Assembly (NCBI GenBank): GCA_038131245.1
Contig: JAYPPA010000002.1
Coordinates: forward strand, 32,354 to 96,353
DNA from: Rickettsia sp.
GTDB taxonomy: Bacteria; Pseudomonadota; Alphaproteobacteria; Rickettsiales; UBA1997
Reading direction: 5' to 3'
Length of the DNA stretch: 64,000 nt
A model generated the notes under the pieces. The model worked only from the letters and a program-made list of their open reading frames with translations, did no database searches and was not told the origin of the DNA. Below are positions 45,924-46,301 of the stretch, in pieces. Both the position numbers and the translations under genes were made by a program. Each line of letters begins with the position of its first letter. Positions within the stretch are counted from its first letter, which is position 1.

Positions 45924-45952
45924 TTGCTATCAAGTTGATTTTGTGGTATAAT
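45924..45952 (+). promoter_or_regulatory. near-consensus sigma70 promoter (TTGCTA-17-TATAAT with upstream TG)
   Basis: ttgcta tcaagttgattttgtgg tataat. The predicted TSS coincides with the first base of the 141-bp tandem repeat. Confidence 0.6.
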
Positions 45953-45956
45953 ATAG

Positions 45957-46271
45957 TAAGTAAGCAAAATTACCCTTTTTTGGTGATTTAGGCGTTATTA
46001 AAAGATTTCTGAAATTCATGTACATCTAGGTACACTAAAATTCCAGAAATTTTTAATGTCTATAAATCCCTCAAAATATGGCAATTTGTAGCTTTGTTAA
46101 GTAAGCAAAATTACCCTTTTTTGGTGATTTAGGCGTTATTAAAAGATTTCTGAAATTCATGTACATCTAGGTACACTAAAATTCCAGAAATTTTTAATGT
46201 CTATAAATCCCTCAAAATATGGCAATTTGTAGCTTTGTTAAGTAAGCAAAATTACCCTTTTTTGGTGATTT
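45957..46271 (+). repeat. 141-bp tandem repeat, 2 full copies plus a 33-bp partial third copy, forming the 5' leader of the 760-aa ORF
   Basis: Units start at 45957, 46098 and 46239 and look near-identical by eye. Each full unit has an imperfect 12-bp-stem hairpin followed by T5 (46005-46055; 46146-46196). Confidence 0.85.
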
Positions 46272-46301
46272 GAATTGTAAACAATTTTATGAGGAGTCTT
46301 T

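What the first reader, a model, noticed from the sequence alone, without database searches (positions are those of the whole stretch)
45924..46301. Consensus promoter driving a roughly 340-nt leader built from 141-bp tandem repeats, each with a hairpin-T5 module and an 11-codon mini-ORF
The promoter TTGCTA-17-TATAAT (45924-45952) places the TSS at the first base of a 141-bp unit. That unit is repeated 2.2 times (45957, 46098, and a truncated copy from 46239). Each full unit contains an imperfect 12-bp stem (atttctgaaatt / aattccagaaat) with an inner 5-bp hairpin. Each hairpin is followed directly by TTTTT (46005-46055 and 46146-46196), which is a terminator- or attenuator-like shape. Then comes ATG TCT ATA AAT CCC TCA AAA TAT GGC AAT TTG TAG (MSINPSKYGNL; 46056-46091 and 46197-46232). 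The partial third unit runs into the only strong SD I noticed in the window (gaggag), just ahead of the 760-aa ORF. This could be a duplicated sRNA gene, or a tandem attenuator or riboregulator controlling the downstream effector-like gene.
Basis: seen in the sequence. Interest (0 to 1): 0.6.

Follow-up and report, generated by a model that had tools for sequence, protein, structure and literature searches.

The report
Tandemly duplicated palindrome in mRNA leader
Between a conserved strong promoter and a fast-evolving gene of an uncultured Rickettsiales bacterium sits a 141-bp palindromic DNA unit copied head-to-tail 2.2 times; it looks like a recent, probably incidental repeat expansion of a kind already known in this bacterial order, not a dedicated RNA switch.

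Summary
The interpretation needs correcting.

- **Repeat:** the 141-bp repeat (45957-46271, 2.2 copies, 100% identical) is real.
- **Promoter:** TTGCTA-17-TGgTATAAT is real and conserved in all three syntenic relatives.
- **Palindrome:** the whole 141-bp unit is one long imperfect palindrome of about 50 base pairs (z -4.0 on the plus strand, -5.8 on the minus strand).
- **Sub-features:** the 12-bp stem, the T5 run and the 11-codon mini-ORF are all pieces of its arms. The T5 pairs with AAAAG on the left arm. The mini-ORF has no SD, and 68% of shuffles contain an ATG ORF at least as long.
- **Relatives:** the three relatives have the same promoter and an orthologous gene, but only a 37-41-nt leader and no repeat.
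- **Databases:** nothing matched in Rfam, and the unit was not found in any public collection searched.
- **Other palindromes:** the same genome carries other 110-145-bp intergenic palindromes, including one dispersed family with at least 3 copies (a fourth partial match lies at a contig end).

Best reading: this is a lineage-specific palindromic element in the transcribed leader that was recently amplified in tandem. It resembles the hairpin-bearing VNTRs of Wolbachia and the Correia/ERIC/RPE-type elements. Any effect on expression is probably incidental. Copy number above 1.2 rests on a single assembly. I rate it a new member of a known kind, of low to moderate interest.

The parts
45203..45760 (-). 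pal (peptidoglycan-associated lipoprotein) gene, the divergent upstream neighbour. Its true start is the ATG at 45760, not the TTG at 45820.
   Evidence: TIGR02802 Pal_lipo scores 143.5 bits against a cut-off of 125. OmpA domain found. Orthologues of 184-186 aa occupy the same position in L004, L005 and L006.
45789..45816 (-). Promoter-like site for pal (TTGACA-16-TATCAT).
   Evidence: Matches 11 of 12 positions in the scan. The TAATTGTCAAG block is invariant in the relatives.
45924..45952 (+). Promoter of the 760-aa gene: TTGCTA, 17-nt spacer, TG-extended TATAAT.
   Evidence: Found in the scan. C19-C23 (CTTGC) and T35-A49 (TTTT.TGGTATAATA) are invariant across the window, L004, L006 and L005. 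The motif TTGTGGTATAAT is unique in the window.
45957..46097 (+). Repeat unit 1. It consists of a 33-bp head R (45957-45989) and a 108-bp body X. The imperfect palindrome spans about 45961-46094.
   Evidence: TRF. RNA folds: -32.5 kcal/mol (z -4.0) on the plus strand and -39.1 (z -5.8) on the minus strand. The unit matches its own reverse complement at 71% over 124 bp, E 4e-6. Arm alignment.
46098..46238 (+). Repeat unit 2, identical to unit 1. The palindrome spans about 46102-46235.
46239..46271 (+). Partial unit 3, consisting of the 33-bp head R only. The array therefore reads R-X-R-X-R.
   Evidence: Logan unitig L001 starts at 46242, which is k-1 = 30 bases before the first unique base.
46056..46091 (+). 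The 'mini-ORF' MSINPSKYGNL, present again at 46197-46232. It lies in the right arm of the palindrome and is not supported as a gene.
   Evidence: There is no SD upstream, and 68% of shuffles hold an equal or longer ATG ORF.
46272..46301 (+). Unique 3' part of the leader, containing the SD GAGGAG (46291-46296).
   Evidence: Sequence. It is the best SD among 40 ORF starts. Mean P(unpaired) over SD to AUG is 0.30 with the array and 0.48 without it.
46302..48584 (+). 760-aa all-helical protein with a central Gly-rich hydrophobic region. It belongs to a small, fast-evolving family with no known domain.
   Evidence: No Pfam or NCBIfam family matches. There are 71 cluster representatives among 1.84 billion proteins. 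Positional orthologues are 29-38% identical. The AF2 model is all-alpha, pLDDT 69.7, with no PDB fold or sequence match.

Best explanation
The array is a lineage-specific, non-coding palindromic element of about 134 bp lying in the transcribed 5' leader of a strongly expressed gene. It has recently been amplified in tandem (R-X-R to R-X-R-X-R).

The most likely cause is slipped-strand mispairing or unequal recombination between the 33-bp direct repeats, helped by the hairpin-forming palindrome. In other words, it is a VNTR built from a palindromic unit.

It is co-transcribed passively from the conserved promoter. This lengthens the leader from at most 67 nt (the leader without X) to about 345 nt and adds two hairpins of about 50 bp each. 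The expected consequence is a modest, incidental change in mRNA fate: processing by a double-strand-specific RNase, some pausing or termination, and lower SD accessibility. It is not a dedicated riboswitch, attenuator, sRNA or leader peptide.

**Shown:** the repeat, the palindrome, the conserved promoter, the absence of the unit from relatives, and the presence of other palindromic elements in the genome.
**Inferred:** the mechanism of amplification, transcription through the array, and any effect on expression.
For: - The copies are 100% identical and arranged R-X-R-X-R, the pattern that recombination between 33-bp direct repeats produces.
- The whole unit is a significant palindrome.
- L004, L006 and L005 share the promoter and the gene order pal / promoter / large orphan gene / GST / APH. 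Their leaders are only 37-41 nt and carry no repeat. Their pal-to-gene spacers are about 230 bp, against 541 bp here.
- No Rfam hit, and no terminator call in the array.
- The mini-ORF is at chance level.
- The same genome holds several other 110-145-bp intergenic palindromes, including a dispersed family at 2426-2549, 56546-56656 and 22094-22202, with a further short partial match (29 bp) at the end of L009. Palindromic repeats are therefore a feature of this genome.
- Hairpin-bearing intergenic VNTRs with near-identical units and fractional copy numbers are documented in another Rickettsiales genus. There they are attributed to slippage promoted by hairpins (PMC3287509).
- The repeat junctions are confirmed in two independent read sets.
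Against: - Copy-number variation between strains, the hallmark of a VNTR, could not be tested.
- The copy number of 2.2 rests on one assembly.
- Zero divergence between copies carries little information over only 174 bp.
- A strong conserved promoter plus the best SD in the window suggests the gene matters. A 282-bp structured insertion in its leader might be expected to be selected against unless it is tolerated or useful.
- A covariance model of the unit gives one marginal hit to another palindrome at 59065-59190 (26 bits, rough E about 0.003; pairwise z 1.6-3.8). That would favour a dispersed or mobile family over purely in-situ origin.
- The folding prediction shows only a modest change in SD accessibility, so even the incidental effect is uncertain.
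Confidence: 0.55

Rival explanations
1. Mobile palindromic element (MITE-, RPE-, Correia- or ERIC-like). The unit would be a copy of a dispersed non-autonomous element that landed just downstream of the promoter and then duplicated. This concerns origin and can co-exist with the best explanation.
For: - The size (about 134 bp), the whole-length imperfect palindrome, the lack of coding capacity and the intergenic position all fit.
- The genome carries other palindromic families of the same size.
- There is one marginal covariance-model hit at 59065-59190, with shared AAAGC...GCTTA ends and an ATTTTAGTGT centre.
- If the whole 315-bp array is removed, the distance from the -10 box to the ATG is 34 nt, similar to the 37-41 nt in relatives.
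- There is a precedent: a Correia element sits immediately downstream of the mtrCDE promoter (PMC10969869).
Against: - No second clear copy exists in about 71 kb of this genome.
- There is no match in the species-representative genomes, JGI metagenomes, viral contigs, plasmids or phages.
- No target-site duplication flanks the array.
- The first roughly 16 nt of R (GTAAGTAA..AAAAT) resemble the native leader of L004 at the same offset from the -10 box (p about 0.004 against L004, but 0.25 against L006). That hints that R is native rather than imported.
Confidence: 0.2
2. Dedicated cis-regulatory RNA: a tandem attenuator or riboregulator, a duplicated sRNA gene, or control by a leader peptide.
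For: - The array sits between a strong promoter and a strong SD.
- Each unit has a hairpin followed by U5.
- Its folding is significantly better than that of shuffles.
- The partial third R could pair alternatively with the right arm of unit 2 (I8). This gives two folding registers, as in attenuators.
Against: - It is absent from all three relatives that keep the promoter and the gene.
- No Rfam family matches.
- The stem is AU-rich and the terminator scan does not call it.
- The U5 is base-paired in the larger palindrome.
- The transcribed plus strand folds worse than the minus strand.
- Units 2 and 3 have no promoter.
- The mini-ORF has no SD and is at chance level.
Confidence: 0.08
3. Contingency (rheostat) locus: slippage-driven changes in unit number tune the expression of a highly expressed, fast-evolving membrane or host-interaction protein, and this variation is maintained by selection.
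For: - The gene has the strongest SD in the window and a conserved consensus-like promoter.
- Its protein evolves fast, at 29-38% identity between genomes whose conserved oxidoreductase is 73-75% identical.
- Strain heterogeneity exists in the source samples.
- Each added unit adds a long hairpin, and predicted SD accessibility drops from 0.48 to 0.30.
Against: - No copy-number polymorphism was observed, and it could not be tested.
- Known contingency loci use short repeats with high slippage rates, not 141-bp units.
- The predicted effect on the SD is small.
Confidence: 0.12
4. Assembly artefact. The true locus would be R-X-R (1.2 copies), and the second unit would have been created by a mis-join through the 33-bp R.
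For: - The copies are perfectly identical.
- Short-read unitigs (k = 31) break at both borders and cannot count copies.
- Only one assembly carries the full array.
Against: - The junctions X|R and R|X are present in two independent runs.
- By de Bruijn graph logic (an inference), a true R-X-R of 174 bp has no repeated k-mers at the large k values used by common assemblers and would assemble uniquely. A looped output implies at least two X copies.
- The palindrome and its position in the leader remain valid either way.
Confidence: 0.05

Closest known systems
[quoted passage not shown] 2012, PMC3287509; associated ARM motif, PMC4029913)
   Same: - Same order (Rickettsiales).
- Intergenic head-to-tail repeats of 105-141 bp.
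- Units almost identical within a locus.
- Internal hairpins, thought to promote slippage.
- Fractional copy numbers (such as 2.3).
- A 141-bp period made of a 108-bp core plus 33 bp, numerically identical to R (33) + X (108) here.
- Association with dispersed repeats in the same genome.
   Different: - The organism is not Wolbachia; its nearest named relatives are 'Rickettsiales bacterium' MAGs at about 50% identity in a conserved enzyme.
- The VNTR primers are absent from the window.
- Here the whole unit is one long palindrome, whereas the Wolbachia units carry 23-bp hairpins with 9-bp perfect stems.
- The flanking genes differ as far as annotated.
I treat the 141/108 coincidence as numerical.
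Correia (CREE/NEMIS) element inserted just downstream of the mtrCDE promoter in Neisseria (reviewed in PMC10969869)
   Same: - A palindromic non-coding element of 100-200 bp lying between a promoter and its gene.
- It is co-transcribed.
- It forms a long hairpin that RNase III can cleave, changing expression as a side-effect of the insertion.
   Different: - Correia elements have defined terminal inverted repeats and a TA target duplication, occur in more than 100 dispersed copies, and sometimes carry IHF sites or promoters. None of these was demonstrated here.
- Tandem duplication is not typical of Correia elements.
Rickettsia palindromic elements (RPE; PMC10969869 and references therein)
   Same: - Same order.
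- About 100-150-bp palindromic repeats.
- Several unrelated families per genome.
- Able to sit in transcribed regions.
   Different: - RPEs are defined as multi-copy families in the genus Rickettsia and are often inserted in-frame in ORFs.
- This unit has no clear second locus, has stops in all six frames, and was not compared with RPE consensus sequences.
ERIC/IRU elements of enterobacteria (PMC10969869)
   Same: Imperfect palindromes of about 127 bp in transcribed intergenic regions. Their RNA hairpins alter the stability of the mRNA that carries them.
   Different: They occur in a different phylogenetic group, are dispersed in many copies, and are not tandemly amplified.

Membership tests
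Any curated RNA family (riboswitch, leader, sRNA; Rfam 15) | Covariance-model score at or above the family gathering threshold | tested here: not met
   In the whole window only tRNA-Gly passes. Over 45700-46500 at E up to 10, only miRNA-hairpin noise appears, at 14-22 bits against thresholds of 33-249.
Intrinsic terminator / transcription attenuator | A G+C-rich stem immediately followed by a free U-tract | tested here: not met
   The terminator scan finds nothing in 45957-46301. The inner stem has only 2 G-C pairs and folds at -9.1 kcal/mol. The U5 pairs with AAAAG in the extended stem.
Intrinsic terminator / transcription attenuator | A translated leader peptide with an SD and regulatory codons, conserved among relatives | tested here: not met
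   There is no SD before the ATG at 46056, and ORFs of this kind occur in 68% of shuffles. The unit is absent from relatives.
Independent sRNA gene (duplicated) | Each copy has its own promoter and terminator | tested here: not met
   The only plus-strand promoter is at 45924-45952. None lies at the unit 1 / unit 2 junction.
VNTR (variable-number tandem repeat) | Head-to-tail copies of a unit in non-coding DNA | tested here: met
   TRF reports period 141, 2.2 copies and 100% identity. Stops occur in all six frames.
VNTR (variable-number tandem repeat) | Copy number differs between strains | not testable with these tools
   Only one assembly spans the array. The Logan k = 31 unitigs break at its borders.
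Wolbachia VNTR-141 locus | Flanking primer sites, and a unit with a 23-bp hairpin that has a 9-bp perfect stem | tested here: not met
   The primers need at least 5 mismatches anywhere in the window. The longest perfect stem in the unit is 7 bp, ATTTCTG/CAGAAAT. The organism is not Wolbachia.
Wolbachia VNTR-141 locus | Sequence similarity of the 141-bp period | not testable with these tools
   The wMel unit sequence is not held in any accessible collection. Indirectly, an exact 34-mer from the unit is absent from 185,579 species-representative genomes.
MITE / palindromic mobile element (Correia, ERIC, RPE type) | Small (under 300 bp), non-coding, with terminal inverted repeats or whole-length palindromy | tested here: met
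   The palindrome spans about 134 bp with 49-51 pairs and contains no ORF.
MITE / palindromic mobile element (Correia, ERIC, RPE type) | Several dispersed copies in different genomic contexts | tested here: inconclusive
   blastn finds no other copy in the window or in L009. The covariance model gives one marginal hit at 59065-59190 (26 bits).
MITE / palindromic mobile element (Correia, ERIC, RPE type) | Short target-site duplication flanking the element | tested here: not met
   The flanks ATATAG| and |GAATTG share no direct repeat, and the repeat cannot be extended by a single base on either side.

The most novel reading that the evidence does not exclude
The array could be a copy-number-variable structured leader. 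Recombination between the 33-bp repeats would add or remove 141-nt hairpin modules, and this would tune the output of one of the most strongly signalled genes in the region (conserved consensus-like promoter, best SD). That gene encodes a rapidly evolving all-helical membrane protein likely to face the host. This would be a long-unit contingency or rheostat locus in an obligate intracellular lineage.
Probability: 0.12. Interest if true: 0.55.

Novelty: new member of a known kind. Interest (0 to 1): 0.25.

Why it matters
If the best reading holds, this is one more example of a known pattern: reduced, AT-rich Rickettsiales genomes accumulate palindromic repeats and hairpin-bearing VNTRs, here seen in a poorly sampled lineage. 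Its practical uses would be as a strain-typing marker and as a warning to annotators, because the 'hairpin-T5' and the mini-ORF are by-products of palindromic symmetry.

The more useful by-product is the downstream gene. It has a promoter conserved across genomes in which the protein itself is only 29-38% identical, and it has the strongest SD among 40 genes. Its family is a small, domain-less, all-helical group with a Gly-rich hydrophobic core. That makes it a reasonable candidate for an abundant surface or host-interaction protein.

If unit number did modulate expression, this would be a rare long-unit contingency mechanism in an intracellular bacterium.

Tried and rejected
1. **Wolbachia VNTR-141 identity.** This was a lead from memory, prompted by the 141-bp period. 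I rejected membership because the primers are absent, the organism is a different Rickettsiales lineage, and the hairpin architecture differs.
2. **Rfam.** Searches at gathering and permissive thresholds found nothing.
3. **The unit in public collections.** An exact 34-mer in species-representative genomes, and a gapped two-block pattern in JGI metagenomes and IMG/VR, gave 0 hits. Sensitive blastn against plasmids and phages gave no match.
4. **More orthologous loci.** Searches with a family alignment in genome contigs and metagenome contigs confirmed no relatives. Word-indexed homologue searches returned only the query itself. L007 ends inside pal and was uninformative.
5. **Relation to the window's other palindromes.** Comparison of the unit with P1, P4, P5 and P2 gave z below 2, so it is not in those families.
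6. **Function of the 760-aa protein.** Pfam, NCBIfam, PDB sequence search and Foldseek on an AF2 model all found nothing significant.
7. **Integron attC site.** I considered this because attC sites are imperfect palindromes of 57-141 bp, and dropped it on reading the sequence. There is no RYYYAAC inverse core site, no cassette ORFs, and no integrase among the neighbours.
8. **CRISPR array.** Excluded because the units abut with no spacers.
9. **Native or inserted R.** Alignment statistics on whether R or the 3' segment D is the native leader were equivocal.
10. **Source of the samples and relatives.** A literature search for the sample and assembly accessions found nothing.

Full report
**Observation**

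TRF finds one outstanding array in the window: 45957-46271, period 141, 2.2 copies, 100% matches, score 630. blastn places the copies at 45957, 46098 and 46239, the last being 33 bp, and finds no other copy in the 64 kb. The array therefore reads R-X-R-X-R, with R = 33 bp (TAAGTAAGCAAAATTACCCTTTTTTGGTGATTT) and X = 108 bp.

The promoter TTGCTA-17-TATAAT at 45924-45952 has a TG extended -10 and is called by the scan. GAGGAG is the best SD among the 40 ORF starts I checked; most genes in the window have little or none.

**Organism and context**

The upstream neighbour on the minus strand is pal. It passes TIGR02802 above its cut-off, and its real start is the ATG at 45760. Upstream of that lies a 1115-aa RP005-type FAD oxidoreductase. 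Its closest database relatives are 73-75% identical, and the named hits are 'Rickettsiales bacterium' MAGs at about 50%. The window is therefore from an uncultured, poorly sampled Rickettsiales lineage, not from Wolbachia.

The downstream 760-aa protein has no Pfam or NCBIfam family. An exhaustive phmmer search finds only 71 cluster representatives among 1.84 billion proteins, and none of the 37 members tested carries a Pfam domain. The AF2 model is all-helical, with mean pLDDT 69.7, and has no PDB match by fold or by sequence.

**Comparative evidence**

Three relatives keep the gene order oxidoreductase / pal(-) / large orphan gene / GST / APH:
- L004, from ENA;
- L006, from Logan;
- L005, from GCA_038133445.1.

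Their orphan proteins are 29-38% identical to the 760-aa protein.

All three relatives keep the promoter. CTTGC and TTTT[G/A]TGGTATAATA are invariant in the four-way alignment. Their leaders, measured from the -10 box to the ATG, are only 37-41 nt and contain no repeat. Their pal-to-gene spacers are about 230 bp, against 541 bp here.

So the promoter is genuine and under constraint, while the 141-bp unit is a lineage-specific addition to the leader.

**What the unit is**

Folding the unit shows that nearly all of it forms one long imperfect hairpin of 49-51 pairs:
- plus-strand RNA: -32.5 kcal/mol, z -4.0;
- minus-strand RNA: -39.1 kcal/mol, z -5.8.

At the DNA level the unit matches its own reverse complement at 71% over 124 bp (E 4e-6).

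- The 12-bp stem is its core.
- The T5 run is the complement of AAAAG on the left arm and is paired in the extended stem.
- The mini-ORF lies in the right arm. It has no SD, and 68% of dinucleotide shuffles of the unit contain an ATG ORF of at least 11 codons.

The terminator scan calls nothing in the array. Rfam gives nothing beyond sub-threshold miRNA-hairpin noise.

In a fold of the whole leader, each unit forms its own hairpin. Predicted accessibility of the SD-to-AUG segment falls only from 0.48 to 0.30.

**Other palindromes in the same genome**

An inverted-repeat scan shows further intergenic palindromes of 110-145 bp. Those at 2426-2549 and 56546-56656 belong to one family (z = 19). 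That family has a weaker copy at 22094-22202. A fourth, short partial match (29 bp) lies at the end of the Logan contig that extends 7 kb beyond the window. Others lie at 38742-38854 and 26481-26646.

The 141-bp unit is not sequence-related to any of these (z below 2).

A covariance model built from the unit gives one non-self hit, a 126-nt hairpin at 59065-59190 next to tRNA-Gly (26 bits, rough E about 0.003). That hairpin is itself a significant structure (z -5.9). It shares end motifs and a centre motif with the unit, but pairwise statistics are marginal: z ranges from 1.6 to 3.8 depending on the scoring scheme. Whether the unit belongs to a dispersed family therefore stays open.

The unit is absent from species-representative genomes, JGI metagenomes, IMG/VR, plasmids and phages.

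**Is the repeat real?**

Logan k = 31 unitigs from two runs end at 45986, and another begins at 46242. These are exactly the points where a de Bruijn graph must branch if R occurs in the contexts promoter|R, X|R, R|X and R|unique leader. The right-hand unitig is identical to the window. The left-hand ones differ by 9 and 16 SNPs within the oxidoreductase and pal genes, so the samples contain related strains.

This proves at least R-X-R. The second X rests on the single assembly. By de Bruijn graph logic (an inference), an assembled loop implies at least two X copies, and the true number could be higher.

**Origin**

This is unresolved. Two observations point in different directions:
- Removing the whole array leaves a 34-nt distance from the -10 box to the ATG, close to that of the relatives.
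- The first roughly 16 nt of R resemble the start of the L004 leader (p about 0.004), though not that of L006 (p about 0.25).

No target-site duplication flanks the array.

**Comparison with known systems**

The closest documented phenomenon is the Wolbachia VNTR-141 and VNTR-105 loci. These are intergenic 141-bp and 105-bp units with hairpins, near-identical copies and fractional copy numbers. They are attributed to hairpin-promoted slippage and concerted evolution (PMC3287509), and are associated with a dispersed repeat motif (PMC4029913).

The identical numbers (141 = 108 + 33) are striking. Even so, the primers are absent, the organism differs and the hairpin architecture differs. Direct sequence comparison was not possible.

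In terms of how it might work, the nearest parallels are Correia and ERIC elements. They are co-transcribed with genes, and their hairpins are cleaved by RNase III or RNase E. One example is a Correia element located just downstream of the mtrCDE promoter (PMC10969869).

**Verdict**

The promoter and leader placement is supported. The sRNA, attenuator and leader-peptide readings are not supported.

The most likely explanation (confidence about 0.55) is a recently amplified palindromic unit in the leader, that is, a VNTR made of a palindromic element, with at most an incidental effect on expression. I rate it a new member of a known kind, with low to moderate interest (0.25).

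Noticed in passing
window 2426-2549, 56546-56656, 22094-22202; L009 12083-12111 (about 7.1 kb beyond the window end): A dispersed family of intergenic palindromic elements of about 110-125 bp. The pair 2426-2549 / 56546-56656 scores z = 19, and the other two matches are weaker or partial. 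Logan unitigs tend to break at these elements. They resemble RPE or MITE elements and appear not to have been described for this lineage.
   Followed up: partly
window 59065-59190 (minus strand), 12 nt upstream of tRNA-Gly(GCC) at 58979-59053: A 126-nt hairpin (-41 kcal/mol, z -5.9). It is the only non-self hit of a covariance model built from the 141-bp unit (26 bits). It shares AAAGC...GCTTA ends and an ATTTTAGTGT centre with the unit, so it may be a distant relative. A promoter-like site (TTGCAA-17-TATAAT, 59355-59327, minus strand) lies upstream, which would put this hairpin in a tRNA leader.
   Followed up: partly
window 38742-38854 and 39309-39347: A G+C-rich palindrome whose arms (28 nt, 93% complementary) are themselves hairpins (CCTCCCTATAAATAGGGAGG). 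It lies between convergent genes, and a 39-bp partial copy sits 450 bp away.
   Followed up: no
window: palindromes at 45957-46097, 2426-2549, 56546-56656, 22085-22210, 59065-59190: Five of the six long palindromes fold 7-23 kcal/mol better as minus-strand RNA than as plus-strand RNA (G-U on the minus strand, A-C on the plus strand). This is the opposite of what leading-strand C-to-T bias would produce in this G- and T-rich plus strand. It may reflect an intrinsic orientation of the elements, but the sample is too small to be significant.
   Followed up: partly
window 46302-48584 and its promoter at 45924-45952: The promoter is nearly invariant across four genomes, whereas the protein it drives is only 29-38% identical. 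The gene also has the strongest SD of the 40 ORFs checked. The protein is all-helical with a central Gly-rich hydrophobic segment (about residues 355-470), and its family has only 71 cluster representatives. It is a candidate abundant membrane or host-interaction protein.
   Followed up: partly
L005 6393-8903 (GCA_038133445.1): The orthologue of the 760-aa gene is split into two ORFs (320 + 493 aa), which suggests a frameshift or pseudogenisation in that relative. The real start of the first ORF appears to be the ATG about 41 nt after the conserved promoter, not the start that was called.
   Followed up: partly
window 7717-12501 (minus strand): A 1594-aa protein carrying a poly(ADP-ribose) glycohydrolase catalytic domain (PF05028, from the precomputed annotation of the Logan contig), with internal G+C-rich short repeats at 8429-8493. 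This is a eukaryote-like domain in an intracellular bacterium.
   Followed up: no
window 52840-53125 (minus strand): An ORF of about 95 aa that is Lys/Ala-rich and histone-H1-like (…AAKKATVKKAVKKAPAKK…). It is encoded by the 15-51-bp tandem repeats that TRF reports at 52891-53119.
   Followed up: partly
window 50415-52706: A 763-aa ankyrin-repeat protein with about 7.7 tandem 99-bp (33-aa) repeats at 50742-51508. It lies three genes downstream of the 760-aa gene.
   Followed up: no
window 43988-44035: Eight SNPs between the assembly and the Logan unitigs of two runs are packed into 48 bp of the oxidoreductase gene. This looks like a short recombination tract or a strain-variable patch.
   Followed up: no
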